Counted from the first letter of the stretch, positions 749-56,510 are shown. The stretch is DNA of 64,000 nt from an uncultured Candidatus Peribacteria bacterium (GCA_964413195.1 CAYPRD010000001.1:27039-91038); one strand, 5' to 3'. Notes: generated by a model from the letters alone, not told the origin. Numbers and translations are program-made.

Positions 749-2512
749 ATGGCTATGAAATTAAAAATGAAAAAAAATTGCCCCATTTCCAAAAAAAGCT
801 TTCTTATAACAGAAAATGAAAAAAAATTTATCGACCAAATTTCTCCTCAATTTTGTGGAAAAAAGTACCTCTTCCCTTTTCCAGAAATTTGCCCAGAAGA
901 AAGAGTCCGTATGCGTGTGCTTCATCGTAACGAACAGTATCTTTACAAGAATTCCTCAGCATTCACAGGAAAGCCACTCATATCACTCTATCGTCCTCAT
1001 ACGTGAATCAAAGTAGTCACACGCGAAGAGTGGTTTTCAGACACATGGGATGCTATCGAGTACGGAAAAGAATACACTCATGAGCAAGCATTTTTTCAAC
1101 AGTTCTCCACACTGCAAAAATCCATACCACGGGCCGCAACAGTAACAGTCAACAATGAAAATTCCGACTACACAACCGGGACCTGATACTGCAAAAATTG
1201 TTACCTCATTAACTCCTCTGAATACTGTGAAGATTGTTATTATTCAAAATTATTACAAAAGTGTAGGAATTGTATTGATACAAGCTATGCATTTGACTCA
1301 GAATATCTCTATGAATGCTTTAACTGTGAGAAATGCTTTCATTGCGAATACTGTATCAATACAACAAATAGTTCTGATTGTTTTTATTGTAAAAATTGTA
1401 TCGGTTGTCAGAATTGTTTTGGGAGCATAAATTTGAAAAATAAATCCTATTACTTCATGAATGAAAAATGTTCTCCTGAAGAGTACAAAAAGAAAATCCA
1501 ATCACTCTGACTATCAGACATAAAACAACGATCCCTCATCTGGTCTCGTTTCCGGGATTTTTTCAGAACTCAACCACACAAATACGCCAATATAACAAAC
1601 TCTGAGAATTGTACTGGGGATTTTATCATCAACTCTCGTAACTGCGAAGAATGCTATGATATCTCAGATTCGGATGCGTGTCAGTATGTACAGGTATGAG
1701 TAAAATGCCGATCACTTATCGATTGCTCAAATATGTACGTTAATCCAGAATTTTGTTATCAAACACTCGGAACTATAGAAGTGCACAACTGCCATTTTTG
1801 CCTCTATGTTTTTCATAGTCGAGATCTCCTCTATTGTGAACAATGTTTTTCTTGTAAAAGTTGCTTTTGATGTGTCGGGTTAAGAAATAAAGAATATTGC
1901 ATCCTCAATAAACAATATAAAAAGGAGGAATACGAGAAAAAAGTCATTGAAATAATTACCGATATGCAAAAAACCCATGAATGGGGTGTGTTTTTCCCAG
2001 CATGGATGTCACCCTTTGCATACAACGAATCGCTTGCGCAGGATTATTTTCCTCTTACATCAGAAAAAAATGAAGAAATAGGTGGAATTCCTGGAATATA
2101 TACCCGTACAGAAAATGGTCAGACTTATTTTTGGTACGAGAAAGAAAATTCTGAATTTGAGTGAACATGGTATGAGCCACTCCCCATCGATCAATATGAC
2201 GAAAAAAAAGTTGGTTACGATAGGGCTGCAAAAAATATACAAAACTGCCTCAGTGGAGTACTACGGTGCCAAGAAAGTGGGAGGCCATTTAAGATTATTC
2301 GACAAGAACTTGCCTTCTATATACAGCACTCGCTCCCCCTCCCTATTTTATGTCCAGATGCTCGGCATGCTCATCGTATGAAACTGAGAAATCCCAGGAA
2401 ACTTTACCCGGGCACGTGTGCAAAAACGGGAGAAAATCTACTTACCTCATATCCTCCAGGAAGTCCGGAAGTACTCTATAGTGAAAGGGCATTTCAGGAT
2501 TTACTAGAATAA
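749..2512 (+). CDS. cysteine-rich repeat protein, paralog A (587 aa in table 25; function unknown)
   Basis: The frame of ORF 749-1006 reads through 6 in-frame TGA to TAA at 2510-2512 and absorbs ORF 1964-2164. About 39 Cys lie in CxxC strings (YCKNCYLINSSEYCEDC, ECFNCEKCFHCEYC, DCFYCKNCIGCQNCFG), in two internally duplicated halves. A motif F.I...EL.FY....P.P..CP..R...R..RNP occurs near both termini. Paralog of 30723-32426. Confidence 0.7.
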
Positions 2513-9713: not shown

Positions 9714-11003
9714 TTATAAAATACCATTTTTCTGACATTCTTCAGTCGTGGTCATACCAAGAAGTACTTTTGCCTGAGCATCTTGCTCAAGAGTAATATA
9801 ATAATCCTTTCTTGTTTTTCGGAGTATATCGGTGTGCGTAGCACCGAGTCGTATAGCGTCGCGAATTTCATCTGTTATACGGAAAACTTCATAAATTCCT
9901 ATACGTCAGCTATACCCAGTAAATCAACACGCCTCACATCATTTTCCCTTCTGTGGAAAACTCTCATGGGAACCATAGAGCTCAAGAAGTTCCTTGTCTT
10001 TTTCGGAAAAACTATACGCATGGGGTTGTCAACATTTATGGCAAATTCTACGAACAAGTCTTTGCGAGATAATGAGATCAAGAGACGCTGCGACATCAAA
10101 AGCAGAGACACCCATATTTTCAAGACGTTCCAGTGTTTCGAGCGCACTTTTTGTATGGAGCGTAGAGAGAACAAGATGTCCTGTCAAAGACGCCTGTATA
10201 GCCGTACGAGCCGTATCAAGATCACGAATTTCACCTATCATAATGACATCTGGATCATGCCGAAGTACCGAACGAACTCCGAGTGAAAACGTATATCCCT
10301 GTCGTTCATTTATCTCAGACTGCAGGATTCCTGGAATTTGATATTCGATAGGATCCTCGAGAGTAATAATTTTGTCTTCAGGGTTTCTAAGAGTATCGAT
10401 GAGAGTATAGAGCGTGGTGGTTTTACCAGATCCAGTTGGACCAGTAACCAATATCATTCATTGTTTTTTCTGAACTGAGCTGAGTATCAGAGATTTTTGG
10501 GTACCAATGATTCCTAAACTATCCAGTGTCATAACTGTCTGAGATAAATCAAGGATACGGCAAACAATACTCTCTCCATATCTGGTTGGCATGACAGAAA
10601 CACGTACATCTATTTCTGCCTCATGACCATCCCTTCAAAAACGAAATTTCCCATCCTGCGGAACATCGTGAATGTTGAGTTTGAGATTTGATCGGTATTT
10701 CATCCGCTCGACTATGGCGGCATGATCATGACTACTGAGACTTCCAACAGACTCAAGTGATCCATCGATACGAAAACGTATTTGAGAATCATTTTCATGA
10801 AGCTCAAGATGGATATCAGATGCGTGGAGCTCTATCGCTCAGCGAACCAGTGCTCATAGTGCTATATCAGAGTCCTGACGATCGAGCGCTACTTCAATTT
10901 CATCCAAAATATGCCGAAACTCTGGTCTATGCAAATCACCAACAGTTTTTTGTTTATGGAGGATGTTTTCTAGATTTTTTATGTTCTCTAAAACTTGATT
11001 CAT
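9714..11003 (-). CDS. pilB: type II/IV secretion ATPase, PilB/GspE family (short form, 429 aa)
   Basis: ORF 10029-10457 (ILVTGPTGSGKTTTLY Walker A, RHDPDVIMIGEIRD) is extended through TGA. C-terminal zinc motif G-CEAC-G-FTGYS-G-RIGIYEV has three TGA glycines. ATG at 11003, TAA at 9714-9716. Confidence 0.85.
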
Positions 11004-22913: not shown

Positions 22914-25900
22914 TTATCTTTTCTGAAGGCGGAAAATAGGCATAAAAATGAGAGAAATGGAAAGAATGATGACCACCCTCAGGAGGAATGAGCTCAGAGG
23001 GTCATTTTCTCTGTATCATCACGAGCCTCCGATATCCTGCGGAGTATCCTTTAAATCAAGCGTGTAGTGCGATCATGACGAGGAAGAAGAAACCTTGGGG
23101 AGAGCATGGTGCACAATGAAGAAACTTTGTTCAACTTTTTCTTGTGTAATACTATCTATAGCACGCAAAATGAGAGCATGTCTTCCATACGGAACAGAAA
23201 AAGCAGACGGATTTTTTGTTCGGAGAATATCTCCATTCGGTAACACCCATTCATATTCCACCGAGTCATCTCTATTTGATTCCGCTGTAAAATTCACCGT
23301 ACATGACCCTCGACTAAAACAATAAAAAACACCCTCTTTTTCAAAACGGTTTTTCGTTATTTTCCCCTGAAAACGTATAGAAACATTGAGTGGTATTAAA
23401 AAGTGTGACGATATACTCTCAACGTCTACTTTTTCCTCAATTATCACTCGGTTATCCAGATCTCCTAGTACGAGACGAAGAGTATATTCCCCTGTATTTT
23501 TCGGGAACCATGTGTATTCATATTCGCCATATACATCGGTGACAAGAACTCTGGAATGAAGCTCATTTCATCCATGTATCTCTACAAGCACAGGAAAATT
23601 TCCCCACGTTCTCCCAGAAATATGGAGTGCACCTTTCTTGGTTTTTGAGATACGAAAGGTCGTTATGTCTTCCGTTTGGTTTTTCCAATCAATTTCTTCT
23701 TTTTCACACACCTCTCATTCTTCCTGATGACAAAATTCGAGGAGTTCTTGTTGCAAATCCAGATATTCTTTTTCTTGTTGGTCAGATAAAAATTTGGTAT
23801 CCTCTCAATTTAACAGAAGCATTTCAGAAGCAATCTTTTTCTCACCCCAAACGCCAAAAAGATTTTTCTTTGCCTCTCATTCTTTTATATCAAACATTTC
23901 ATAGCGGAAAAATGGAAACCGTCTTTCCATACGAGCATACCCAAGATCAATTAGGTGAGCATTGAAAAGTACGCATTGATCTTCAGAAAATACACTCTCT
24001 GGACACGTCCAAACATACGCCAATCTCCGTCCATAATGATCAATTGGGGCAGAATCAAAGGTGAGCCATACTTCTTTTCCTTCCAGATATTTTTTCGTAA
24101 ACTCACTCACCTCTTTTCATAAAATCTCAAGTGGCTTGTAGGGATGAACAGTTTCTGGTGTATCGACTCCAAGAAGACGAATCTTTATTATATGGCCATC
24201 GATACTCCCCTCAATGGTATCCCCATCAATCACACGAGAAACAATCATTTTTTTCGTTTCTGGTTGGAGAATTTCTGGGCGAAGAATATAGGAAGAAGGA
24301 ACGGGAAAATCCCATGAAAAAGTATCAACAAGAACGTCTCCGCAGAGCAAAGTGAGTGATTCTCGACTATTGTGGAGACGGAGTCATGAGAGGGCCTGTC
24401 GTATACGAAAAGTTTGTTTGGAACGGAGAGTGCCAGAAAGAAAATATTCTGAGGTAGAATTCTGGATACGACACTCATCAAGTATGATATCTTCATGGGA
24501 AATATTTTGTATTTCAATCCATTCAACTGTATCGGCATGAGGTGGATTTGGTAAAATTGCAGAAAAAATAATTTTTCATTTTATATCTTCCCTGCACTCA
24601 AGGCAAGGATCAGTCTGATCAAAATTTTCTACGACCTCTACTTCGTACTGAGTTTCTGAAGTTATACTTCATGAAGAAACAGTAAGTCTGATACTATATT
24701 TTCCGGGAAGGAAATTATGGCTTGGTGGATTTTGTTTTTCCGAGATTGTCCCATCACCAAAATCCCAATGCCAATGAGTCACTCATGTCTGATCCAATGC
24801 AGTAAAATTAAGAGAGCAAAATTTTGCCTTTCAACGAGCACACACAATTCATGCTGGAAGAATTTTTTTATTCCGCGTAACTTTTGTTTGTAATACAATT
24901 TGTGCTAGTACTCAATCTTTCTGATCTCATTTTTTCCGAGTAAAAATAGGAAGAATCCTTTCGATACTTTTTTCTGTATCATGAGGATAAAAAATTCGGA
25001 CAGATACGTGGGTGTCTCAGAAAAATTGCACATATCCTGGATTACATTTTTTATCTGTTCACGGGGTCTGGAAAATTCCTGATCCAAAATTCCACTCACA
25101 CAAGGCTCACACTGGAGCTTCCACAAGAAAGTTTACAAAACAAGTATCAGTTTTACATGTACGAGACTCATCAAGGCCACTTTGCACTTGGATATCTATT
25201 CCTGATAAGTCGTTCCCTTGGGGTGATACACTCCCATTGCCTGGAGGAAATCACACAAAAGAAAGAGAACGAGTCACAAGAAGGGTGTTATTTCTTGTGT
25301 CGAGAATCTGGACAGTAATCATGTGATTCCCTTCAGGAATAGTAAAAGTATTTGGATTACAATCATTTTCTTCTCTTCAAAAATCTGATGTTATTCTACA
25401 GATTAGCTGTGCTGAAGGGTTACCATCAAGTTTCGGTATTACTAAAATATTCACACGACATTCGCCCTCTCCTGTATCGCATGTATACGTGTCCAAAGTG
25501 CTATTTTCTTTCCCAAGCAGATACGTTGGTTGCTGAAAGACAAGGTCGAGAGAAATCCTTTCTGGATGAATTGTAGTATCCAAAGGAAGATTCTTTATAT
25601 AAATGAGTTCCTCTCGCAGCCTCTCTCCTGTCACACGATTTTGTATTTCTATACGGAGGATGTATTCTCATACAGGCACAAGAGAAGACACAGGATTGCA
25701 CGGATCACTTCCTGGTACCAATTCAAAATCTGCTGTTATTTTACATGACAAAAGAGCGCTCTCCTGTCCATCCAGAAGAGGCGCGACGAGAAGGTTCACA
25801 CGACACTCATTTTCCTCTGGATCACAAAAATATTCATTTTTATACACGTCTTTTTCCAGAAGGTATGTCGGGGTTTGCCAATTTCGACTGAGCGTTACCC

Positions 25901-26321
25901 GGTCAGGACTGATCACAGATTCATCTTTCCGTACAATAAATATATGTCATTCAACCACGGTACTATCGTCAGAGATTCTTTTCACACGAAACCAAACATC
26001 TGAGGTTCCATAAGGAAATTCAATAGTATTTGGATTACATTTATTTTCTTCCCCTGTCACTCCAAATCAAAAATCTATAACACAAGCATAGTGAGTAGAA
26101 GGCTCTTCTGTGGGTATACTTACACTAAAATCAAAATTCACTTTACACGTATCTTTACTGCTATCACACGTATACTGAGTCAATCCAGGAGTATCTTTTT
26201 CGAGAAGATAAGTTGGCTGCTGAAAATGAAATTGAGGAGGATCTCCGAACACATAATAATACTCCACCAGTCATAGACCGATTATTCCTGCCAAAACAAA
26301 TCGACAGAACTTCGGATACAT
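22914..26321 (-). CDS. large membrane-anchored surface protein: 3 novel repeat modules + PKD + lamin-tail domain + staphylococcal-nuclease domain (1135 aa)
   Basis: ORFs 26067-26267, 25668-25916, 25377-25634, 24117-24350, 23877-24110 and 23073-23447 share one frame, and I read every codon between them without meeting TAA or TAG. Signal anchor MYPKFCRFVLAGIIGLGLV. PKD motif HWHWDFGDGT (about 24750-24780). LTD motif ILPNPPHADTVEWIEIQN (about 24312-24575). SNase motifs VIDGDTIEG, IRLLGVDTPE and DHYGRRLAYVW (about 23900-24245). C-terminal TM LLRVVIILSISLIFMPIF followed by RLQKR. TAA at 22914-22916. Confidence 0.75.
25260..26230 (-). repeat. three tandem ~115-aa protein modules inside the surface nuclease gene (periods 348 and 342 nt)
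   Basis: Each module starts Q(Q/T)PTYLLEKD (codons at 26225, 25877, 25535). It then has Y.CD....C(K/R)VN, a C.I..DF segment and a CNPNT(F/I) segment. The copies are diverged at DNA level. Confidence 0.7.
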
Positions 26322-26379
26322 AGCTCAAATATTATACAAAGAAAAATAAAATTTGTATGACCCTATATTTTTGTACAAT

Positions 26380-26706
26380 ATGAGCATGAAAAAATTCCTT
26401 CCCTACGCACCTCTTGCAGCTCTTTTGCTCGGCTTAGGCGGAATATACATCGCTCAACCAATACAGCATTCTTTACCTATTGATATAACACAATCTCAGT
26501 GAGCAGAATTGTCACTATGTACACGGCCAGCAGCATTTATAGAAGAAAGTTCCCTACCTGCTTGGTGCCAAGAAGGATACCAAAAGAATATCAAAAAAGA
26601 AAGGAATATATGGTCATGGGAGTGCACATCAGAAAAGGAAACCACAACCTGTAATTTCGTAGAAACAGGGAATTATCCACGCCGTTGAGGAGTATTTTTT
26701 CGATAA
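26380..26706 (+). CDS. small secreted Cys-containing protein, hypothetical (108 aa)
   Basis: MSMKKFLPYAPLAALLLGLGGIYIA signal peptide. Open through 2 TGA to TAA 26704-26706. Divergent from the nuclease gene across a 58-nt spacer. Confidence 0.45.
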
Positions 26707-30722: not shown

Positions 30723-32426
30723 TTAATAAATATGTTTTTTGAAACATTCTTCGCAAAGAATCTGAAGTCCAGAATCTGGGGGATAGCTCGTAGAAATTGA
30801 CTTCCGACATTCCCGGCAAGAGTCGTTATGAAGTTCACGGGGATTACGGAGCTTCATCAATATTCTATTTCTCTCCCGTGAGTGTAGTGTAGGAAGAGGT
30901 ATGCCATTTTCTCTATGAAAAGCGAGTTCTTGCCTGATAATCTGAAAAGGTTTACCACTCACAGAACAATAAAAGACCGTCCTGAGAGCTTGATCAATAT
31001 TTTTCTTGGCTTCAATTTCTCCAACAATTCTCTCATCATATTGAGATATATGAAGTGGAGGGGTTCAGGAATTATTATAACTTTGGACACCGGCTCACCA
31101 TCGTCCACCCAATTTTTCTACTTCTATTTGGGATAAAGGATACCAATCATAAGCGGCCGTATCTTCATAGGGATAGGGCGAAAGATGTAGTGGAAAGAAT
31201 TCTCACCACTCACCAGTACTCTTCATATGATCAATAATTTTTGAACGAAGTACTTCAAATTCTTGTTGGCTATAGGTTTTATTCAGGATAGAAAATTTTG
31301 CATGATTTAATCAGATACATCAAAATAAATCGGAGGAATTTCGACAACTATCACAATACGTGAGATTTTTTGAATCAAAAATATAGAAACTGTATGTTGT
31401 ATTAAAAGTATTTGTAATAACACATGTGTATGCACATAACTCAGCTGCTGTAAAGCCAAGAGAATAACACCACAGGCAATCTTTGACACCACCAAAGCTC
31501 ATAATATGACGAGAATTTTCTGAGCCCCAGCCATCAAAACAATCAATACATTGAGTACAATTTTGAAGATGATCTCCTGTGGAATTATCTACATGTGTAA
31601 ACTGACTTGCAGGACGAATGCTCTCGGCACGAATTTTATTAAAAACAGCTTTTGCTTGGTCCCAAATAGTCTGACTTGATTTGAGGAGTTGGAGGGTTTT
31701 TTCAAATTCTTCTTTGGTTGATTGCTTATTATATATGCAATATTGTTTCCCGACAAGACCAGAACAGGCAATGCAGTTCTGACAATTTCGGAGTTGATAT
31801 GAGAAATAACATTCAGCACAATCTCGACATTCCTGACATCCAAAACAGAATTGGCAACGAATCACATCAAGACAATTATGAATATTTTCACATGCAGTGC
31901 TCATGGCAGAATCAAATATATTCTTTCATTCTACAGTCCAATAGGAATAATACACATCTTCAGATTTCGTAAATAGAGAACAAAGATAGCAATTTTTCGA
32001 ATAACGAGCATGACTATTGTACTCGCAATTTTCGGAACTAAAAATAGTTGTCCCTACTCGCGGTACAACATCTTGAAGAGATTTATACTGTTCAAAATAG
32101 GTTTTAGAAAAATCAAAATTTCTTCCAAATTCAAAGGCATTCCAGTCATCTGACCACCAAAGTTCATGATTATATACTGGAAAAATAGTATCTGGAGAAT
32201 ACTGTGAAAGTATATTTTGTCATGTTTTGCTACATTTTCGGGAAAATAGATTCCATTCATTACGAAATGCAAAAAGATTTCTCCAAATTTCCCGTGGACA
32301 TAAAGTAGGTGCTGGGATACCAAACTTCTCATAAAAAATCATATCACGGTCAGTCACGACAAATTCCTCCCCAGTTATGCGGCATTTTTTTGTTTGTATG
32401 ATATTTTCGTTTGGTGGTAGGTACAT
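30723..32426 (-). CDS. cysteine-rich repeat protein, paralog B (567 aa)
   Basis: ORFs 32220-32450 (ATG 32426), 31320-31904 and 30723-30962 are in the same frame and joined by TGA. CQFCFGCQECRDCAECYF strings. The C-terminal zinc ribbon is intact (SCRECRKSISTSYPPDSGLQILCEECF). Collinear similarity to 749-2512 over the whole length. Confidence 0.7.
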
Positions 32427-39364: not shown

Positions 39365-40366
39365 CTACGGAGCAACTTTTGCGGCATTCCAATCGATTTC
39401 AAAGATATTTTTGACAGTTTTTACCTCTGGACCTTGGAAAAAAATACCAATTTCTCTATTTTCCTCCAAAGAATTTTTTGTAAAATTAAAACTTCCCACA
39501 AAAGCACGATCACCATCGTATATTAAACCCTTTGCATGCAAATGTGGTTTTGAGATAATTTTCATACGTAAACATGGCTTTTTAGGAAGAGCATCCTCAT
39601 AAGCAAGCAGTATCCGAACGGATACCCCTGATTGGCAGAGCTGATCAAGTGCATCTATAAAAATCTCATCGGTAAGTGAGGGAGCATACATCATCACCTC
39701 CTTCTCTACTGTGGCAAATATTTTTACCAACTGTTCACGGGCATGACCCGGGCCAACTAGGAGAGAATTGTGATAACTTTTTTCGAGTCGAATATTTTGA
39801 AAATCAGCCACAAAAATTTCTTCCAAACTCTTTACGAGAGCTTCTTGATTGCCACTGAGAATCAACTCTCTGTTTCGAGAAAAACTACTCCGGGTCCAAT
39901 TTGATGTTCCTATAAACCATTTATCATCAATAATGGCATATTTTGCATGCATAAAAGTCATTTTTTCTCCTGTGTTTTCCCGATAGGAGATACGATGGGT
40001 AGAAAGGAAATTCTTCGTTTCTCGATTGATAGTTGTGTTATCAAATGGGTATCATTCCAGAACAACACGAACATCTATTCATCTTTCTTTGGCAGTCAAA
40101 AGAGCTTCTCGCAAAGAAGGAAGAGTAAAAGTATACACACCAACCCACACTCTTTCTTTTGCTTTCTTTATAGCATCCAGAAAAAAATCTTCCGCACCAG
40201 GAAGTACACGGACAGCCACATTTTCTTCAAAATTTACCTCTGGCAGAGTTTCGATCTTATGATGTTTTTTATAACGATCTACATCTATATTTCGGACCGC
40301 TATGACCAGCATCACAACAATAAGTGTGACAGAGAAAAATTTTTGCAGTAAATCACGATGACCCAT
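39365..40366 (-). CDS. phospholipase D / cardiolipin synthase family protein (two HKD motifs)
   Basis: ORFs 40079-40366 and 39365-39961 are in the same frame and joined by TGA. N-terminal TM. HKD motifs MHAKYAIIDDKWFIGTSNW and LHAKGLIYDGDRAFVGSFNF. Confidence 0.8.
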
Positions 40367-45357: not shown

Positions 45358-46353
45358 ATGCGCTACGTCACACCAGATGCCGACGATAGAGGTCAGCGAC
45401 TCGACCGTTACACAAGAAAAATATTTCCCGGAGCAAAACTGGGAGAAATATACGAGGCTATTCGGACAAAAAAAATCACCATAGGAGGAAAAAAACTGCC
45501 AGAAAGTACGCGTCTCAGAGAAGGCGATATACTAGAAATCTGACTCTCAGACGCATTGTGGGAAATTTGGACACAAGAAGAAAAAACATCCAAAAACATC
45601 CAAAAAAAACTTCATCCCGAGCGCATACTCTACCAGGATACTCATCTTTTTATCTATGATAAACCCCCTGGACTTATCGTACATAGCCCGGATCATAAAA
45701 CAGAGGAAGTGTCTCTTATAGACCAGATAGAAGATTATCTCACTTCACGAGGATGGAAACCTACTGGTACGTTTGATCGCCCCGCTCTCGCACACAGAAT
45801 TGATCGAGATACATCGGGGATCATCATCACTTGTCTGGACCGAGTATCCTATGAACATCTCGCAGAACAATTTCGCACAAGAAAAGTGGAGAAAACCTAT
45901 CTTGCTCTTGCCACAGGGGTACCAACACCTCCTGAATGAGTCATCCATGCTCCCCTCAAACGGATCGATGAACATGAAGATACGAGGGCAAAGGTTATCG
46001 TAGATATGAGCGGAGAAAAGGCAGAAACACGGTACAAAGTCTTGATTCATTCACCTTCAAAACAATGGAGCCTCGTGGAACTCTCTCCAAAAACAGGACG
46101 AACACACCAGATTCGTGTCCATATGTCACATATTGGACACCCCCTTGTGGGAGACCGCCGCTATGGATGAAAAACTATTCTCCATTTTCCCGAACTTATC
46201 CATACATGCCCAGAATTATGAGATCATCATGGACACATCCTTCACGCAGCATCTATACGTTTTAAAAATATAGACAACACAGTCATCACAATTGAATCAG
46301 TTCCCCCTTGGCTTAAGGCTGTGCAGCCTCAAAAAGTTTCTGCGCCAGAGTAA
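45358..46353 (+). CDS. RluA-family 23S rRNA pseudouridine synthase (RluD/RluC-like, with S4 domain)
   Basis: ORFs 45358-45543 and 45556-45939 plus the downstream same frame. [13 protein letters not shown] and [27 protein letters not shown] at 46351-46353. Confidence 0.85.
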
Positions 46354-48697
46354 GTTTATTATTTCGAACGTTAACATCATTCAGGATAGCATCAGGGAAG
46401 AGTTTTTTCAAACCATCCTCTGCCTGAACGCCATTCGTTGGATTATTTCCTCAAAATGCCTGGCGAATATCATTCTTCTCATCGATAGTAAGTTTGGTCT
46501 TATCGATTGTAGGATTAGTAGGATCAATAACTTGTCGGTTACTTCCGAAAGCAATCTGATTTCACTGGACGCTAGCAGCACTAAATCGAAGTGTTGCAGG
46601 CGTCGATGAAGATGAAGATTGTCATCCCTCTTTGATCACCTTGAACAATTCCTGGGATTTAGTATCCGTAAATACCGAATTAAGATCTGAATCAATAATT
46701 TGAACTAATTCACCCTGAGATTGAGAACCTTGTATTCTACGAATTATGTCCGTCTTCTTGGCTGCATCTATAGTTGATGCTTTAACCATTTCTTCTAGAG
46801 CTATTCTTTGTGCTTCAAGTGCTTTTGCTGTCACACGTGCACCTTGAGGAATATTTCGTAGAGCATTAGTAAACCCATCTACGTTCGTCGCAGCATTTCT
46901 CGCTGCAGCATCCAAATTAAGAAGTCCTGGCGTTTTGAGGATATCTTGCAAATTCTTTCGTTCATTGAGCTCATGTTCATCGACGGATCGACGGAGAGAC
47001 TCAGCAACGGCAGTCATACCAGAAGGAGTGAGAGCCTTAAATGCAGGATGCGGAACCGGGATATGACTTGGAAGGTGTTGGACAAAGTGTCCAACGCTTT
47101 CTCCAAATTTCGCAAAAGGTTCAAATGCCACACGAGTAATCTCATCATGTTGAACCGCGGCCTTAACTCACAACCAAATAATGACGAGTGAGATAAGGGT
47201 GAGAATAATATGCGCAAAAATATCTTCCACACTCGAAATCAATCCTGAAGCGACTCATCCTACTCATGCTGCACCTGTACCAAGTGCACTAGATTTTTCA
47301 GCGCCTCCAATAAATCATGAAAGCATATCACCAAATTCAAATGTTATTGCATACTCTCCCGCTCCTCACCCATTCTCAGCATTCGTCGTATCCGTGCCAA
47401 TAATAAGTCGAGAAGTGTATCCTTGTTCTGATTGCCCATCCGCTGTGATACAGTATTTCACAAGGAAATCACCCGTCGTACAATGCACGCCAGCTGTCGG
47501 CGTTCCATGAATGGCTCATTTAAAGGTATTACTGATAACTCATACAAAAAGCAGTCCAAATGAAAGTACAGCAGATACTAATACCGGTACCATAGCAAGC
47601 TTGAAGAATGGAACAAAACCAAATTCCCCCAACGATGCTCCACCACTTCATCATCACTCAGAATTGAGCGTCTTCCCGGCTCATTCATCACCGACGGCAT
47701 ACGCTAGCCCGAAAAGAGGGGAAAACATCACATAAATCCAGAGTTTAAATGCCCGCACAAGCAGTACCCAACACAGTGCAACTAAGAGAATAGCAAAAAA
47801 CATCGTGGTCACGAGAGCAACACCAAATTTTCGTAATACGGCCATCAAATTCTTCACACAAGTTTTAGAGTCTTGGTAGGTAGTTCATTTATTTTCCGAG
47901 GTGGCTGCACTACTGCAAACATTACTGAGCTCTATAAGTGAGGTTTTCTGGATTTTAAAGATGTCATATGCATAAATCATAATGATGAAAAAGGGACCGG
48001 CCTGATTGTAGCTCACAAATTCAGCAGCAGAGATACATTTTCCTTGTCCATCTCGTTGATTTCCGCTCTCATCACAACCGACCTGTGCAGGATCAGAGCC
48101 GGGACTGGTGCTCCCCATAGCAAAACTGAGTTTTGTCGGGATCACTTTTTCATGAAACATCCCTTTATCTTCTCCTGGTGCAGTCGGGTCCTGCATACGA
48201 GCAATAGCACCCATAGGAACTGAAAGTACTGCTGCTACAGCCTGATTGGCAAAGGAAAGTGTCCAGCTCACAATAAGCCATGTAAATGGCACCATAAGAA
48301 TTCCAATCAGAAATCTTCCTATTTTCTGTTTAAATGCAAATTTATGCTCTCCTCCGCCAAAAATATTCATGACTGCCATGTAGAGCAGAAGAAGCGCAAA
48401 GATTATGTAGACGATATTTGATACCAACACCCAGACTTCCAAGAAATACGCTCGGAGTCCAAAGAAATCTCCCATAGTCCAATCAGGAGAAAGGAGCCAA
48501 CCAGCAATGATAATTGCTGGAGTAAGTAAGATCACGAGTATCCCAAAAACAATATCCAATATCTGGATGATACCTCTCACCACATCACTATCTCCGCTAC
48601 TGTCTGCTGCAAAAGCACACCCAAAGAGAAAGGTAGCAAAAAAGATACTTCTTTTTAGAGTGATAAGAGATCGGAAAGACGTGAGGAAAGAAGTCAT
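46313..48697 (-). CDS. large polytopic membrane protein with hydrophilic C-terminal extension, tentatively VirB6/TrbL-like (794 aa)
   Basis: ORFs 47885-48718 (ATG 48697) and 46622-47131 share one frame, and all codons between them were read with only TGA interruptions. Signal-like N-terminus, at least 7 hydrophobic helices, Gly-rich loops, and a soluble tail of about 270 aa. TAA at 46313-46315. Confidence 0.6.
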
Positions 48698-48698
48698 A

Positions 48699-49517
48699 TT
48701 ATTGATTGTCGGTAGCAAAAAGTTTGAGTTCTTTCAAGGCAGCAATATTAACCCCTTCTGGTAATCGAACCGTAATACCCTGAGCCAGAGCAGCGGCATT
48801 GGCTCGTAGAACAGTAATACGCTGCTCCGAAGCCTGTATGAGGGCTGCATATTCACGAGCAAGACGACGAGAAAATACAGTATTATTTCGATGTTCTTGT
48901 TCCTCTATGCGAAGCTCTTCGAGCTGAACAAGACCCTTTATGATAGCGCTGCTATCTCGATTGTTGTAGGCATTCTCGAGAGAGTTTTGCGTATTTTTGA
49001 TCTCTTCCTGAATGCTTGGGAGTATGCCTGCATGGAGGTCAGCCTGCTGTGTCAACGTATTCATTGCCTCCTTTGCATCATTTTTTGCACGATCGAGTTG
49101 ATCAATATAATTTTCTAATCCGCTCAGCCTATTTGGCTGAAGACGCAAGTATTGAACAATATCAATTTGCAAAATTTCTGTTAATTCTCCTATCCGTTTG
49201 AAATGTTCTTGGAAAAATATCTCACCAGTAATCGGGTTCTGGACAATCGCTTCTTGGACACGGGCAGTATCTTCAGAAAGTCTTACCGGAACAGCATCGG
49301 CCTGAGGGATATCAGTCCCAATATTATTACCGAGAGCAACTCCTACAAGTGCGAGCGGCTCTTCTGGAGCACTGTTGAGTGTGAAAGAATTCGGACGGAG
49401 AGAAAGAGAAAACCCATACGCCGTCAGGGTGATGATGAGGAGCGCTAAGCACACAAATCCAAACCATTGAACTGCATCAGAATAACGTTTGAATCGAAAG
49501 GAAGAATAAAGTTTCAT
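48699..49517 (-). CDS. N-terminally anchored coiled-coil protein, tentatively VirB5/TrbJ-like (272 aa)
   Basis: ORF 48699-49523 contains no TGA. TM FGFVCLALLIITLTAYGF, then a long Q/E/A/L-rich helical region. The stop lies 1 nt from the ATG of the downstream polytopic membrane gene. Confidence 0.55.
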   Translation of the reverse strand: MKLYSSFRFKRYSDAVQWFGFVCLALLIITLTAYGFSLSLRPNSFTLNSAPEEPLALVGVALGNNIGTDIPQADAVPVRLSEDTARVQEAIVQNPITGEIFFQEHFKRIGELTEILQIDIVQYLRLQPNRLSGLENYIDQLDRAKNDAKEAMNTLTQQADLHAGILPSIQEEIKNTQNSLENAYNNRDSSAIIKGLVQLEELRIEEQEHRNNTVFSRRLAREYAALIQASEQRITVLRANAAALAQGITVRLPEGVNIAALKELKLFATDNQ

Positions 49518-53537: not shown

Positions 53538-56510
53538 ATGCAAAAAAACAAGTATTTTTATCAGACGATTCTCGGATGTATGATCTTCTGTTTTGGATCA
53601 GCATTTGCGTATACAAGTGCCGATTGTGAAAATGCATCTCGTCTGGCAAGCAATGGTATCATCACCTATCAATCATCTTGCCCAGGCTATGCACTCGATC
53701 GCAACATTACTCGAGCCGAAGTAGCTGCTGTAGGTCTCAAAATCGCAGAAACATGTGGAGCACTATATGAAACATGGAATACCTGTGAAGGTATTTATTG
53801 TGATGTTACCTCTACCGATCCAAACACATGGGCATGTCGAGCAGCAGAAACACTCGCACGAAATGGTATCATCTCCCTCAACACTCAATCAGATGGATTT
53901 AATCATTTTTACCCAACAAGAAATATTACACGAGCAGAGGCTTTAGCAATTATTCTCAAGAGTGGTAAACTAGATTTTCAGAACTCCACCTACAATGATT
54001 GGCGTTTCAATGGGACAGGGGCAAACAGTTGGCAAAAACCTCTCATGCAATATGCATTTAATAGTGGCTATATAACTTCTATAAATGGTTTCTGACCAAA
54101 TCTTCTTGCTCGCCGCCATGAAGTATTTGGATACGCAGAACAAGTGCTCAGAACATGTGGTGGAGGTGGTGGAAATACTTCATCATGTGGTATCGGTCAA
54201 TATTGGTCTGGAAATACATGTTACAGCTGTTCTGGAGCACCAGCAAACGCATATTATACCGGTAGAAATTCATGTGAATGGACCTGTAACAGTGGATACT
54301 ACAAAAGTGGAAGTAGCTGTGTGAGCAATAATAACAATTACAATCCTTACGGGACATGTCCTGCATGACAATACTGGGCTGGAACCTGTATTTCATGTTT
54401 ATCTGCTCCAGCAAATGCATACTACACAACCTACAACTCATGTGCTTGGACGTGTAATAACGGATACTACAGAAGCGGAGACACGTGCGTGAGCAGTGGT
54501 GGCTGATATGGATCATGTAGTGTAGGGCAATATTGGAATGGATATAGCTGTAGTTTTTGTGGGAACCTCCCTACAAATGCGTATTATAATAGCCAAAACA
54601 GTTGTGAATGGACCTGTAACAATGGATATTATAAGAGTGGTAATAGTTGTATAAGCACGTATAACACCGCTTGTGGCGTCGGACAATATTCATCTGGAAA
54701 CACCTGTTTCTCTTGTAGTTCTGCTCCAGCAAATGCATACTATACGACACAAAATTCATGTGAATGGACTTGTAATAGTGGATATTATAAACTCGGAAGC
54801 AGCTGTGTCAGTTTCAACAATCCATCAACATGTGGAGTCGGACAATACTCGTCTGGGAATAGTTGTTATTCTTGTAACACACGTCCAACCAATGCCTACT
54901 ACACACGAGAAAATTCATGTGAATGGACTTGTAACAGTGGGTACTACCGAGATGGAAATTTTTGTGTCCAAAATTATCAAAACTGTGGTATTGGACAATA
55001 CCTCACTGGAAACATGTGTCTTGGTTGTACCAACAAGCCATCATACGCATACTATACAACCGTTGGATCATGTGAATGGACCTGTGAAAGTGGGTATTAT
55101 AGAAATGGAAACACCTGTACACCTTCGTTTAATCAAAACTGTAGTATCGGACAATATCTGGTAGGAAACAGTTGTGTTTCATGTGGCAATGCTCCTTGGA
55201 ACTCAACCTATACAACCGTTGGATCATGTGAATGGACCTGTAACAGTGGATACTACAGAAATGGGGATAGTTGTATACAAAATGTCGTCAATTGTGGTAT
55301 CGGGCAATACCAACTCGGTAATACGTGTCATAGCTGTACAGGCTTACCTGCAAATGCCTATTACACGACCACCGGCAGCTGTGCATGGACATGTAGTTCA
55401 AACTACTACGCATCAGGAAATCAGTGTTTCCCATACGTAACAAATTGTTGAGTAGGGCAATATCTTTCTGGCAATGCCTGTGTATCATGTACTGGGCTGC
55501 CAACAAACGCATACTATACCACACAGAATTCATGTAGTTGGTCTTGTAGTAATGGCTATACCCAGAGCGGATGATCATGTGTTCCAAATACGTATAATTT
55601 CTACGCATGGTACACGAGTAGTTATGGGACATGTTCAGCAAGCTGTGGTGGAGGAAACCAATACCGCACTGTAGAATGTCGAAATAATCTTGGAATAACT
55701 GTAGCTGATGCGTTTTGTTCTGCAACAGCAAAACCAGTTACAACACAATCATGTAATACGCAGGCATGTACTAATTATGCGTGGTATACAGGAAATTATG
55801 TGACATGCTCAGCAAGCTGTGGTGGAGGAAACCAATATCGAACCGTGGAATGCCGCGATGGAAATGGAATGACGGTTTCTGATAGTTATTGTTCTGCAAC
55901 AGCAAAACCAGTTACAACACAATCGTGTAATACGCAGGCATGTCAAACAGTTACTTATGGATGGTTTGCTGGAAGTTATGGTTCTTGTTCTGCTGTATGT
56001 GGTGGAGGAAATCAATACCGCCCCGTAGAGTGCCGAACAAACACAGGAAACACCGTTGCTGATAGTTATTGTGCACATATTACTCGTCCAACCAATATCC
56101 AATCATGTAATACGCAGGCATGTACTAATTATGCGTGGTATACAGGAAGCTATGGGACATGTTCAGCAAGCTGTGGTGGAGGAAATCAATACCGCACCGT
56201 AGAATGTCGAAATAATCTTGGAATAACTGTAGCTGATGCATATTGTACTGGGACAGCAAAACCAATCAATGCACAATCATGTAATAGTCACGCCTGTGCT
56301 GTGGCGACACAATGTAGTGGATTTCGATTTTGTACAACAGACAACTTTGGTGAGTGGTGCGAGACACCAGAATGTCCCGTAGGATGCACCGCCGTTCTTT
56401 CTGATGCAACAGATAACTACGCAGATATTCGATCCACAAATAATGGACGAAGTATGAAAGGGAAAAATTGTGATGCCGGAACCGAAACCCTCAAAGTATT
56501 TTGTCGATAA
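53538..56510 (+). CDS. secreted SLH-domain protein with 9 Cys-rich (ephrin-receptor/furin-like) repeats and 4 ADAMTS-type thrombospondin type-1 repeats (990 aa)
   Basis: ORFs 53466-54095, 54144-54368, 55014-55451 and 55800-56510 are all in one frame and joined by TGA. Signal peptide ILGCMIFCFGSAFA. SLH-like segments NITRAEVAAVGLKIA and WACRAAETLARNGII...NITRAEALAIILK. Repeats CG.GQY..GN.C..C...P.NAYYT...SCEWTCNSGYY..G..C. TSRs W(Y/F)..SYG.CSA.CGGGNQYR.VECR...G..V.D..C....KP...QSCN.QAC. Confidence 0.8.
54186..55580 (+). repeat. nine tandem ~50-aa cysteine-rich repeats (coding)
   Basis: GQY-containing units: CGIGQYWSGNTC, CPA-G-QYWAGTC, CSVGQYWNGYSC, CGVGQYSSGNTC, CGVGQYSSGNSC, CGIGQYLTGNMC, CSIGQYLVGNSC, CGIGQYQLGNTC, C-G-VGQYLSGNAC. 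Six Cys per unit. Confidence 0.8.
55602..56296 (+). repeat. four tandem thrombospondin type-1-like repeats (coding), with near-identical DNA between units 1 and 4
   Basis: Segments 55623-55711 and 56151-56239 (89 nt each) differ at 2 positions. A 49-nt linker (CAATCATGTAATACGCAGGCATGTACTAATTATGCGTGGTATACAGGAA) occurs identically at about 55747 and 56100. Confidence 0.8.

What the first reader, a model, noticed from the sequence alone, without database searches (positions are those of the whole stretch)
22914..26321. 1135-aa doubly anchored surface protein fusing a lamin-tail DNA-binding domain with a staphylococcal-type nuclease
Read in table 25, six listed ORF fragments plus unlisted stretches form one ORF. 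In order it contains a signal anchor, three novel ~115-aa modules and a degenerate PKD-like segment (CEWNFGSG). A canonical PKD domain follows (HWHWDFGDGTISEKQNPPSHNFLPGKYSIRLTV), then a lamin-tail domain (ILPNPPHADTVEWIEIQNISHEDIILDECRI) and an SNase fold (VIDGDTIEG, IRLLGVDTPE, DHYGRRLAYVW, LIDLGYARM). After about 270 further beta-rich residues comes a C-terminal hydrophobic helix followed by RLQKR, with no LPXTG motif that I can see. Lamin-tail domains accompany DNA-handling envelope proteins such as ComEC in CPR genomes (from memory). CPR bacteria generally lack nucleotide biosynthesis. A cell-surface DNA-capture nuclease for scavenging, or for digesting host or prey DNA, is therefore a plausible role. 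I do not recognise this architecture as described.
Basis: partly seen in the sequence, partly recalled or inferred. Interest (0 to 1): 0.7.

Follow-up and report, generated by a model that had tools for sequence, protein, structure and literature searches.

The report
Surface-anchored DNA-cutting enzyme of a Gracilibacterium
This is a real, intact 1,135-residue gene, readable only when TGA is translated as glycine, for a nuclease held on the outside of a tiny uncultured bacterium by a stalk of antibody-like domains; it is a lineage-specific version of the surface nucleases other microbes use to harvest environmental DNA, not a new kind of system.

Summary
Window 22914-26321 (minus strand) is one 1,135-codon ORF with 25 in-frame TGA codons that behave as glycine. 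SNase and PKD pass Pfam thresholds. LTD is just under threshold here but is found in 18/18 family members. All Ca-binding and catalytic SNase residues are present and are kept in 22 of 23 full-length relatives.

Corrections:
- The three "novel" modules are divergent PKD-type Ig-like domains.
- The N-terminus looks like a cleavable signal peptide, so "doubly anchored" is unlikely.
- The C-terminal region is a helix, two Ig-like domains and a disordered stalk.
- Nothing shows that the LTD binds DNA; it is acidic in every member.

The gene is a fast-evolving core-genome gene in conserved synteny (GlyRS, nuclease, trigger factor) across related Gracilibacteria/Peribacteria genomes.

Best reading: a C-terminally membrane-tethered, Ca-dependent, non-specific nuclease displayed on an Ig-like stalk, degrading nucleic acid outside the cell.

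The design is known: ExeM/Xds, Haloferax Hvo_1477, YhcR and Nuc2, plus a PADLOC family named "SNc+LTD". Public databases already call relatives "thermonuclease family protein". I rate it a new variant of a known kind, of moderate interest.

The parts
22914..26321 (-). Whole gene: 1,135 codons plus stop, 25 TGA=Gly codons
   Evidence: Table-25 translation. Full-length relatives at 36-50% identity. TGA=Gly test.
26244..26321 (-). Residues 1-26: N-terminal signal peptide (n-region MYPKFCR, ~12-residue hydrophobic core, possible cleavage VFG|DPP); cleavage inferred, not tested
   Evidence: Hydropathy. Orthologue N-termini have signal-peptide form.
25887..26234 (-). Residues 30-145: PKD-like Ig module 1 (QQPTYLL...C-D...C.VN...C...F...CNP)
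   Evidence: Module alignment with 10 invariant columns including 4 Cys. hhalign to modules 2 and 3 at 99.9% and to module 4 at 97%.
25542..25886 (-). Residues 146-260: PKD-like Ig module 2
   Evidence: AlphaFold model of the orthologous module has pLDDT 87 and is all-beta. Foldseek finds Ig-like sandwiches.
25254..25541 (-). Residues 261-356: PKD-like Ig module 3 (the most conserved of the three)
25200..25253 (-). Residues 357-374: Gly/Ser/Pro-rich flexible linker
   Evidence: Sequence. The homologous stretch in relatives is variable and rich in G or W (=TGA).
24912..25199 (-). Residues 375-470: degenerate PKD-like module 4 (CEWNFGSG...CNPG)
   Evidence: hhalign to canonical PKD 94.8%, E 5e-8
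24618..24911 (-). Residues 471-568: canonical PKD domain (HWDFGDG)
   Evidence: Pfam PKD 46.7 bits and PKD_4 41.5 bits, both above cutoff
24252..24614 (-). Residues 570-690: invariant CxxC (C573, C576) plus lamin-tail domain (LTD) with invariant C617 and C660
   Evidence: Pfam LTD 27.2 bits in context and 32.4 bits alone, against a cutoff of 34.3. LTD is the only family hit, in 18/18 members. The LTD-SNase stretch aligns contiguously with proteins whose LTDs score 195-369 bits.
23844..24245 (-). Residues 693-826: staphylococcal-nuclease (SNase) domain. Ca ligands D701, D720, T721; catalytic R715, E723, R765; Y763; family-specific disulfide loop C773-C783.
   Evidence: Pfam SNase 57.3 bits. NucI 101 bits. 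PDB SNase E 1.6e-15. Residue mapping. Conservation in 22/23 relatives.
23664..23843 (-). Residues 827-886: strongly acidic helical linker (~40-residue helix) with invariant C864 and C872
   Evidence: AlphaFold model of the orthologous region. Charge -13.
23418..23663 (-). Residues 887-968: Ig-like beta-sandwich domain (no Pfam family)
   Evidence: Model pLDDT about 90. Foldseek hits to tandem Ig-like domains of the adhesins SiiE, RbmA and Bap.
23088..23417 (-). Residues 969-1078: C-terminal PKD-like domain
   Evidence: hhalign to the canonical PKD 99.1%, E 1.6e-18. Model.
22998..23087 (-). Residues 1079-1108: disordered juxtamembrane stalk with the family-specific motif YTLDLKD.PQDIGG
   Evidence: Motif conserved in all orthologues. 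pLDDT below 50. Found only in this family.
22917..22997 (-). Residues 1109-1135: C-terminal transmembrane helix (1109-1130) and basic cytoplasmic tail RLQKR
   Evidence: Hydropathy up to 2.56. A helix plus basic tail is present in orthologues and across the wider superfamily.

Best explanation
The gene encodes a type I membrane protein of a code-25 Gracilibacterium.

Proposed mechanism:
1. It is exported by Sec through an N-terminal signal peptide that is probably cleaved.
2. It stays tethered by its C-terminal helix, with the short basic tail in the cytoplasm.
3. From the membrane outward it has a disordered stalk, two Ig-like domains, an acidic helix, the SNase domain, one LTD, and a distal array of five PKD-type Ig domains.
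4. The SNase domain is a Ca2+-dependent, sugar-non-specific endo/exonuclease. It cuts DNA and RNA near the cell surface into 3'-phosphorylated mono- and oligonucleotides.
5. The Ig-like domains act as spacer and reach, and possibly as an adhesive array that gets the enzyme through the envelope or onto a partner cell.
6. The likely benefit is harvesting phosphate and nucleotides from external or host-derived nucleic acid, for an organism with limited biosynthesis.

Shown: one intact ORF, the domain identities, the intact and conserved active site, extracytoplasmic hallmarks, a conserved C-terminal anchor, and core-genome synteny.

Inferred: signal-peptide cleavage, enzymatic activity and metal dependence, the physiological role, and any role of the LTD.
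For: - ORF and recoding.
- SNase above the Pfam cutoff with all Ca-binding and catalytic residues; these are kept in 22/23 full-length relatives.
- Nine invariant Cys pairs, as expected for an exported protein.
- Signal-peptide-like N-termini in orthologues, and a C-terminal helix with basic tail in all orthologues.
- PKD/Ig-like nature of the non-catalytic domains.
- Conserved position between GlyRS and trigger factor in four related genomes. The nuclease is 37-50% identical while its neighbours are 64-85% identical, typical of an exposed surface protein.
- Experimentally studied analogues: ExeM (signal peptide, LTD, nuclease, C-terminal helix plus Arg tail; stays in the membrane; needs Ca2+ and Mg2+/Mn2+; PMC6085458). 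Hvo_1477 (lipobox, SNase, LTD; identified as important for eDNA metabolism in H. volcanii; PMC3929857). YhcR (Ca-dependent, sortase-anchored, reclaims eDNA phosphate; PMC11458576). Nuc2 (membrane-anchored SNase; PMC3994088).
- Gracilibacteria are reported with limited nucleotide synthesis and lacking PRPP synthesis (PMC11452946).
Against: - No activity, localisation or expression data exist for this family. The 'endonucleases' detected in Gracilibacteria proteomes were type III restriction enzymes.
- Signal-peptide cleavage and topology could not be predicted with a dedicated tool.
- Nucleotide auxotrophy of this organism is unverified, and one closed Gracilibacterium genome encodes most purine and pyrimidine synthesis.
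- No nucleotidase, nucleoside transporter or ComEC gene lies beside the gene. Its neighbours are housekeeping genes.
- One syntenic orthologue (P0023) has lost the catalytic residues yet keeps the whole scaffold, and many superfamily members lack SNase. The scaffold therefore has a function of its own.
Confidence: 0.62

Rival explanations
1. The protein is primarily an adhesin or host-contact fibre. The distal PKD-like array and LTD bind a partner cell or matrix polymer, and the nuclease is an accessory payload that digests host nucleic acid or eDNA matrix at the contact site (predation, epibiosis, or biofilm entry and exit).
For: - The C-terminal domains resemble tandem Ig-like domains of giant adhesins: SiiE, RbmA, Bap, MpIBP, GhpA.
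- The Ig modules are strongly acidic; modules 1-3 carry a mean net charge of -26 across the family.
- The protein evolves fast relative to its neighbours.
- The syntenic orthologue P0023 keeps a 1,291-aa scaffold with a dead active site.
- Many superfamily members share the scaffold and C-terminal anchor but lack SNase.
- Large PKD-bearing surface proteins are invoked for host attachment in the sister lineage Vampirococcus (PMC8080830).
Against: - No binding partner or host is known.
- The active site is strictly kept in 22/23 relatives, so catalysis is under selection.
- Ig-like arrays are equally explained as passive spacers.
- This reading is compatible with, rather than exclusive of, the best explanation.
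Confidence: 0.25
2. It is an uptake-coupled competence nuclease (functionally like EndA or NucA, from my own knowledge). It nicks or cuts DNA captured at the surface so that type IV pili and ComEC can import single strands, which are then recycled to nucleotides.
For: - DNA uptake through type IV pili and ComEC for nucleotide supply is the prevailing model for CPR bacteria (PMC8080830; PMC11452946).
- The enzyme is membrane-tethered.
- A PilB/T2SSE-type ATPase gene lies 12 kb away at 9714-11003.
Against: - There is no linkage to com or pil genes. The conserved neighbours are GlyRS and trigger factor.
- By established SNase chemistry, the enzyme degrades both strands to small 3'-phosphorylated products rather than leaving long substrates.
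- About 280 residues of stalk separate the enzyme from the membrane, where an uptake pore would sit.
Confidence: 0.15
3. It is an intracellular anti-phage defence nuclease of the PADLOC candidate family 'SNc+LTD'.
For: PADLOC model PDLC01096 (C3a212, 'SNc+LTD') hits the protein with E 1.5e-28.
Against: - Only the SNase half of that profile aligns (positions 43-183 of 279), and the domain order is reversed here.
- The protein has a signal peptide, nine conserved Cys pairs, seven Ig-like domains and a C-terminal anchor.
- It sits in a conserved housekeeping context with no defence partners.
Confidence: 0.03
4. It is not a functional single gene: either a pseudogene or several genes, with the long table-25 frame being a coincidence or an assembly artefact.
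For: Standard-code gene calling splits it. Public databases hold many 137-419-aa fragments of relatives.
Against: - P about 3e-24 for the open frame.
- Collinear full-length relatives at 86-100% coverage.
- TGA interchanges with GGN codons.
- Window-wide recoding.
Confidence: 0.01

Closest known systems
ExeM (Shewanella oneidensis) / Xds (Vibrio cholerae) extracellular endonucleases
   Same: The layout is the same: signal peptide, LTD upstream of the nuclease, then a C-terminal hydrophobic helix with a basic tail. ExeM stays membrane-associated, acts on DNA close to the cell and needs Ca2+ (PMC6085458).
   Different: Their catalytic domain is EEP (endonuclease/exonuclease/phosphatase) with an OB-fold region, not SNase. 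Their C-terminus is a GlyGly-CTERM rhombosortase signal with GG abutting the helix. They have no PKD array. They occur in diderm Gammaproteobacteria.
Haloferax volcanii Hvo_1477
   Same: It has the same two core domains, SNase and LTD, on a membrane-anchored extracytoplasmic protein. It was identified as important for extracellular-DNA metabolism in H. volcanii (PMC3929857; PMC5118699).
   Different: The domain order is reversed (SNase 23-215, then LTD 236-326). It is anchored by an N-terminal lipobox, is about 330 aa with no Ig/PKD stalk, and is archaeal. The PADLOC 'SNc+LTD' profile has this order as well.
Bacillus subtilis YhcR
   Same: It is a large, multidomain, Ca2+-dependent, non-specific nuclease displayed on a monoderm cell surface through a C-terminal signal. 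It reclaims eDNA phosphate (PMC11458576).
   Different: It is anchored covalently by sortase YhcS; here there is no LPXTG and no adjacent sortase gene. From my own knowledge, not tested here, YhcR also carries OB-fold and 5'-nucleotidase domains and lacks LTD and PKD.
Staphylococcus aureus Nuc2 and Nuc (NucI and EcnA are the nearest NCBIfam models)
   Same: It has the same catalytic fold and residues, and Nuc2 is a membrane-tethered, Ca2+-dependent surface SNase (PMC3994088). The best NCBIfam hits are NucI (101 bits) and EcnA (69 bits).
   Different: Nuc2 is a small type II protein with an N-terminal anchor and no accessory domains. The scores are far below the equivalog cutoffs (250 and 180), so this protein is not a member of those subfamilies. 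Its SNase carries a family-specific disulfide loop (C773-C783), and His replaces Lys84.
Uncharacterised multi-LTD/PKD/Big + SNase proteins of uncultured bacteria (e.g. P0277, P0319, P0289, P0276, P0294)
   Same: They show a contiguous alignment over the LTD-SNase-helix cassette (query ~578-870) and have Ig-type arrays around it. The two named clusters are called 'thermonuclease family' proteins, one of them from Gracilibacteria.
   Different: They carry 4-8 LTD copies and Big_13, Big_9 or CARDB domains instead of the QQPTYLL-type PKD-like modules. Identity is about 31-36%. Their taxonomy is mostly unknown.
Candidatus Izemoplasma 1,049-aa protein with nucleic-acid-binding, nuclease and LTD domains
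   Same: It is a large secreted protein combining LTD with a nuclease, in an organism shown to forage on extracellular DNA (PMC8289736).
   Different: It is encoded in a dedicated DNA-degradation locus beside genes interpreted as nucleoside or nucleobase transporters, and the paper reports nucleases or nucleosidases in the same neighbourhood in related genomes. I did not compare its domain types or sequence.

Membership tests
Staphylococcal nuclease / thermonuclease (Pfam PF00565) | Profile match above the curated cutoff | tested here: met
   57.3 bits against a cutoff of 21, residues 713-825. PDB SNase E 1.6e-15.
Staphylococcal nuclease / thermonuclease (Pfam PF00565) | Ca2+ ligands Asp21, Asp40, Thr41 | tested here: met
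   D701, D720, T721. D720 and T721 are invariant and D701 is at least 90% conserved across 24 sequences.
Staphylococcal nuclease / thermonuclease (Pfam PF00565) | Catalytic Arg35, Glu43, Arg87 | tested here: met
   R715, E723, R765, kept in 22/23 relatives.
Staphylococcal nuclease / thermonuclease (Pfam PF00565) | Ca2+-dependent DNase/RNase activity | not testable with these tools
   Needs expression of a TGA-recoded construct.
NucI / EcnA equivalogs (NCBIfam NF047694, NF047969) | Score above the equivalog cutoff | tested here: not met
   101.2 bits against 250, and 69.4 bits against 180.
Lamin tail domain (Pfam PF00932) | Profile match above the curated cutoff | tested here: inconclusive
   The window copy scores 27.2 bits in context and 32.4 alone, against 34.3. 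LTD is the only family hit, in 18/18 members, best E 5.3e-10. The cassette aligns contiguously to P0277 836-1138, whose best LTD stretch is 836-932 (LTD total 245.5 bits over six stretches).
Lamin tail domain (Pfam PF00932) | Ig-like beta-sandwich fold matching solved lamin tails | not tested
   No model of this segment was made. A sequence profile found no PDB chain, which is uninformative.
PKD domain (Pfam PF00801 / PF18911) | Profile match above cutoff and the WDFGDG motif (residues 471-568) | tested here: met
   46.7 and 41.5 bits. HWDFGDG is at residues 518-524.
PKD domain (Pfam PF00801 / PF18911) | Membership of modules 1-3, module 4 and residues 969-1078 | tested here: inconclusive
   There is no direct Pfam hit. 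hhalign gives a chain: mod1-mod4 97.1%, mod4-PKD 94.8%, PKD-cPKD 99.1%, but mod1-PKD is only 79%. The module model is an Ig-like sandwich with TM only 0.4-0.5 to solved domains.
ExeM/NucH/Xds extracellular endonucleases | EEP catalytic domain | tested here: not met
   No EEP family appears among the Pfam hits at E up to 1.
ExeM/NucH/Xds extracellular endonucleases | GlyGly-CTERM sorting signal (GG directly followed by a helix and basic cluster) | tested here: not met
   No NCBIfam sorting-signal model hits the tail at E up to 10. The conserved GGG lies about 10 residues before the helix.
Hvo_1477-type lipoprotein nucleases | Lipobox anchor and SNase-then-LTD order | tested here: not met
   There is no lipobox in the first 40 residues. 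The order here is LTD then SNase.
Sortase (LPXTG) substrates | LPXTG-type motif just before a C-terminal helix and basic tail | tested here: not met
   The helix and basic tail are present, but there is no LPXTG-like motif near the C-terminus. The only loose match is NPVSS at residue 209.
New lineage-specific C-terminal sorting signal (hypothetical) | The same tail motif recurring on otherwise unrelated proteins | tested here: not met
   A tail-profile search of 5.8 billion proteins returned only four hits, all C-terminal fragments of this same nuclease family. Sensitivity for a 16-residue motif is low.
PADLOC candidate defence family C3a212 'SNc+LTD' | Full-length profile match and a defence-island context | tested here: not met
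   Only profile positions 43-183 of 279 align. The context is housekeeping.

The most novel reading that the evidence does not exclude
Gracilibacteria carry a modular surface-display platform. It consists of a signal peptide, QQPTYLL-type PKD-like modules, PKD, LTD, an exchangeable payload slot, Ig/PKD stalk domains, a juxtamembrane motif, a C-terminal helix and a basic tail. SNase is one payload.

On this reading the distal array docks onto a host or prey cell and the nuclease digests nucleic acid released at the contact site. The family would then be a direct molecular handle on how these uncultured epibionts feed. Orthologues that lost catalysis but kept the scaffold (P0023), and SNase-less members, would be adhesion-only derivatives.
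Probability: 0.15. Interest if true: 0.6.

Novelty: new variant of a known kind. Interest (0 to 1): 0.36.

Why it matters
CPR bacteria such as Gracilibacteria are thought to live off other cells' building blocks. The model in the literature relies on pili and ComEC; a dedicated surface nuclease has not been part of it in the papers I read.

This gene is conserved, sits in the core genome, and keeps an intact active site. It therefore offers a concrete enzyme to test: recode, express, assay.

It also exposes a practical annotation problem. Relatives in public protein databases are either chopped into 137-419-aa fragments (standard code) or carry Trp where Gly belongs (TGA read as Trp). Both hide the architecture from routine searches.

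It does not change what is known about surface nucleases in general.

Tried and rejected
1. C-terminal sorting signal. I asked whether the conserved YTLDLKD.PQDIGGG motif, helix and basic tail is a new or known sorting signal. NCBIfam gave no hit. A tail-profile search found only fragments of the same family. No LPXTG or lipobox is present. The idea is not supported.

2. LTD profile against PDB sequences. There were no meaningful hits, which is uninformative. Family-wide Pfam scanning and transitive homology were used instead.

3. Structure prediction of the window protein itself.

4. A novel fold for the ~115-aa modules. Rejected.

5. Independent minimal LTD-SNase proteins (P0134, P0136). They are fragments of larger superfamily members.

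6. Expression evidence from Gracilibacteria metaproteomics. The reported endonucleases are type III restriction enzymes.

7. Literature on EcnA. Nothing relevant was found.

8. Promoter and terminator scan. Sites were no more frequent than in shuffles (8 found, 12.3 expected).

9. Paralogues or similar anchors elsewhere in the window. None.

10. The adjacent 108-aa secreted ORF as a possible partner or inhibitor. It is conserved only in L002 and absent from L001, L003 and L004, so it is not coupled.

11. Taxonomy of the distant LTD-SNase clusters. Almost no names were available.


Full report
**1. The observation**

The minus strand from 26321 to 22914 is a single frame of 1,135 sense codons ending in a stop at 22914-22916. 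It has 25 in-frame TGA codons and no TAA or TAG. Under the standard code it falls into 25 pieces, the longest 164 aa. The probability of such an open frame at this composition is about 3e-24.

The whole window is recoded: 128 stop-to-stop ORFs of at least 150 aa under table 25, against 35 under table 11.

TGA means glycine. At the 25 TGA sites, 23 full-length relatives carry G (175 cells) or W (117 cells). The W entries arise because those database entries were translated with TGA=Trp. GGN-glycine sites show the same G/W mixture. Genuine TGG-Trp sites are W in 285 of 318 cells and never G. TGA-735 aligns with Gly55 of S. aureus nuclease.

**2. Domain content**

Pfam finds:
- SNase at 713-825, 57.3 bits (cutoff 21).
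- PKD at 504-563, 46.7 bits (cutoff 23.5).
- LTD at 581-670, 27.2 bits (below the 34.3 cutoff; E 5e-6).

NCBIfam's nearest models are the thermonucleases NucI (101 bits) and EcnA (69 bits). Both are far below their equivalog cutoffs.

Against S. aureus nuclease, the Ca ligands D21, D40 and T41 map to D701, D720 and T721. The catalytic R35, E43 and R87 map to R715, E723 and R765, and Y85 maps to Y763.

The LTD segment alone scores 32.4 bits. LTD is the only Pfam family hit, in 18 of 18 family members (best E 5e-10). The contiguous LTD-SNase-helix stretch also aligns to more distant proteins whose LTDs score 195-369 bits. I accept the LTD assignment at family level, while noting that the window copy formally misses the cutoff.

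**3. The 'novel modules' and the C-terminal region**

The three ~115-aa modules are true repeats. They share ten invariant columns, including four cysteines.

Profile-profile comparison links the domains in a chain:
- modules 1, 2 and 3 to each other, at least 99.9%;
- module 1 to the degenerate module 4, 97% (E 6.5e-11);
- module 4 to the canonical PKD, 95% (E 5e-8);
- the canonical PKD to residues 969-1078, 99% (E 1.6e-18).

An AlphaFold model of the orthologous module (pLDDT 87) is an all-beta sandwich. Its best PDB matches are FN3-like, S-layer, cadherin and filamin domains at TM 0.4-0.5, with none better than E 0.005. The modules are therefore divergent PKD-type Ig-like domains, not a new fold.

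The region after SNase was modelled on the orthologue (pLDDT 80.6). It consists of:
- a roughly 40-residue acidic helix;
- two confident beta-sandwich domains that resemble tandem Ig-like domains of giant adhesins such as SiiE, RbmA, Bap and MpIBP;
- a disordered stalk.

**4. Topology**

Nine cysteine pairs are invariant across the family, which fits an exported, disulfide-bonded protein.

Orthologue N-termini have the form of cleavable Sec signal peptides: a basic n-region, a 12-15-residue hydrophobic core and small residues, ending about 5 residues before FQQPTYLL. In the window protein the hydrophobic core is only FVLAGIIGLGLV, and VFG|DPP fits the -3/-1 rule. 'Doubly anchored' is therefore unlikely, but I could not run a dedicated predictor.

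The C-terminus is conserved in form in every orthologue: KYTLDLKD.PQDIGGG, about 10 variable residues, an ~18-22-residue helix, and a short basic tail. A helix plus basic tail is also general in the wider superfamily.

There is no LPXTG and no lipobox. No curated sorting-signal model matches. A profile of the tail retrieves only fragments of this same family. The simplest reading is a stop-transfer anchor of a type I membrane protein.

**5. Family and context**

About 24 full-length relatives (36-50% identity, 86-100% coverage) exist. The sources call them 'endonuclease YncB (thermonuclease family)' or 'micrococcal nuclease'.

Among species-representative genomes, full-length copies occur only in Gracilibacteria/Peribacteria-type MAGs.

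The gene sits between GlyRS and trigger factor, followed by CorC, Dus and G6PD, in the window and in four related contigs. It is a core-genome gene, not part of an island. Its neighbours are 64-85% identical between genomes while the nuclease is 37-50% identical, so it evolves fast.

Twenty-two of 23 relatives keep every active-site residue. The exception, P0023, occupies the same slot upstream of trigger factor but has lost D21, R35, E43 and R87 while keeping a 1,291-aa scaffold.

A broader superfamily of 700-1,500-aa Gracilibacteria proteins shares the modules, PKD, LTD, stalk domains and anchor, often without SNase.

An exhaustive search gives 137 representative clusters at E up to 1e-30. 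Dozens of these match the LTD-SNase-helix cassette inside proteins with 4-8 LTDs plus PKD or Big domains.

**6. Mechanism**

The best-supported model is as follows. The protein is exported by Sec and held by its C-terminal helix. It projects from the membrane as stalk, two Ig-like domains, acidic helix, SNase, LTD and five PKD-type domains.

The SNase domain should be a Ca2+-dependent, non-specific nuclease producing 3'-phosphorylated products. That chemistry is established for this fold; here only the residues are shown.

The physiological role most consistent with the organism is scavenging phosphate and nucleotides from external or host-derived nucleic acid. Gracilibacteria have been reported with limited nucleotide synthesis and without PRPP synthesis (PMC11452946). 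This is not universal, however (PMC6851277), and cannot be checked in this window.

The LTD's role is unknown. Its function in ExeM is unresolved, and the LTD-less enzyme still clears DNA in vivo (PMC6085458). Here the LTD is acidic in every member, with net charge -2 to -11, so 'DNA-binding' is an assumption.

Rivals:
- An adhesin or host-contact reading and an uptake-coupled (competence-type) reading remain open, and they overlap with the main model.
- A cytoplasmic defence role is disfavoured by the topology and context, despite a PADLOC hit to a family named 'SNc+LTD'.

**7. Comparison with what is known**

- ExeM/Xds have the same layout (signal peptide, LTD, nuclease, C-terminal helix and basic tail) but an EEP catalytic domain and a GlyGly-CTERM signal.
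- Hvo_1477 has the same two core domains in reverse order, with a lipobox anchor, and was identified as important for eDNA metabolism in H. volcanii.
- YhcR is a sortase-anchored, Ca-dependent nuclease that reclaims eDNA phosphate.
- Nuc2 is a membrane-anchored SNase.
- A Candidatus Izemoplasma protein combines LTD, nucleic-acid-binding and nuclease domains in DNA-degradation loci.

The window protein works like these but is not a member of any of the named families beyond SNase, PKD and (at family level) LTD.

**8. Verdict**

The combination of QQPTYLL-type PKD-like modules, one LTD, SNase and a type I anchor is lineage-specific and uncharacterised. The principle is well known, and relatives are already auto-annotated as thermonuclease family proteins.

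I rate it a new variant of a known kind, with interest about 0.36. Its main value is as a testable enzyme for CPR nutrient acquisition and as an example of how code-25 genes are mis-stored in public databases.

Noticed in passing
window 53538-56510 (+): A 990-aa secreted protein. It has a weak SLH hit near the N-terminus, about ten Cys-rich ~55-aa repeats (CG.GQY..GN.C.SC...P.NAYYT...SCEWTCNSGYY), and four thrombospondin type-1 repeats (Pfam TSP1_ADAMTS, E 1.3e-44). TSP1 repeats look unusual for a CPR bacterium (my impression; not checked).
   Followed up: partly
window 749-2512 (+) and 30723-32426 (-): Two 587- and 567-aa CxxC-rich proteins with no Pfam hit. By eye they share a C-terminal region (...IIRQELAF...PLP...LRNPR...TSYPP...), so they may be paralogues of unknown function; they were not aligned.
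   Followed up: no
window 39365-40366 (-): A 333-aa protein with an N-terminal hydrophobic segment and two PLD/HKD domains (PLDc_2, E 4e-43). It is a membrane-anchored PLD-family enzyme and could be a lipid synthase or a second, Nuc-type nuclease.
   Followed up: no
window 9714-11003 (-): A PilB/T2SSE-type ATPase (E 1.6e-114). It is a component of type IV pilus or competence-type machinery, 12 kb from the nuclease.
   Followed up: no
window 26380-26706 (+): A 108-aa ORF with a signal-peptide-like N-terminus and four Cys, divergent from the nuclease gene. It has a 41%-identical homologue next to an EamA transporter gene in L002 (2479-2829) but is absent from L001, L003 and L004. It is a real gene and not coupled to the nuclease.
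   Followed up: partly
window 46313-48850 (-): An 845-aa protein with several hydrophobic stretches in its sequence and no Pfam family.
   Followed up: no
database relatives P0001-P0023 and P0121-P0133: Public protein collections store this family in two faulty forms: with Trp at TGA positions (a TGA=Trp table was used), or as 137-419-aa fragments (standard code). Routine searches therefore under-report the architecture.
   Followed up: yes
L081 2331-6206 (P0023): The syntenic orthologue upstream of trigger factor has lost the SNase active site (D21N; R35 to W, which may be a TGA-encoded Gly; E43T; R87S) while keeping an intact 1,291-aa scaffold with four QQPTYLL-type modules.
   Followed up: partly
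window 26322-26345 (upstream of the start codon, minus strand): A perfect TATAAT preceded by TG ends 9 nt before the ATG at 26321 (read). This suggests a very short leader or a leaderless mRNA. The consensus scan did not list it because no -35 element matches.
   Followed up: no
window 23326-26273 (+), antisense to the gene: Five stop-to-stop ORFs of 192-276 aa lie on the opposite strand under table 25. With only two stop codons, such antisense frames are expected. I did not search them for homologues, and found nothing that suggests they are genes.
   Followed up: no
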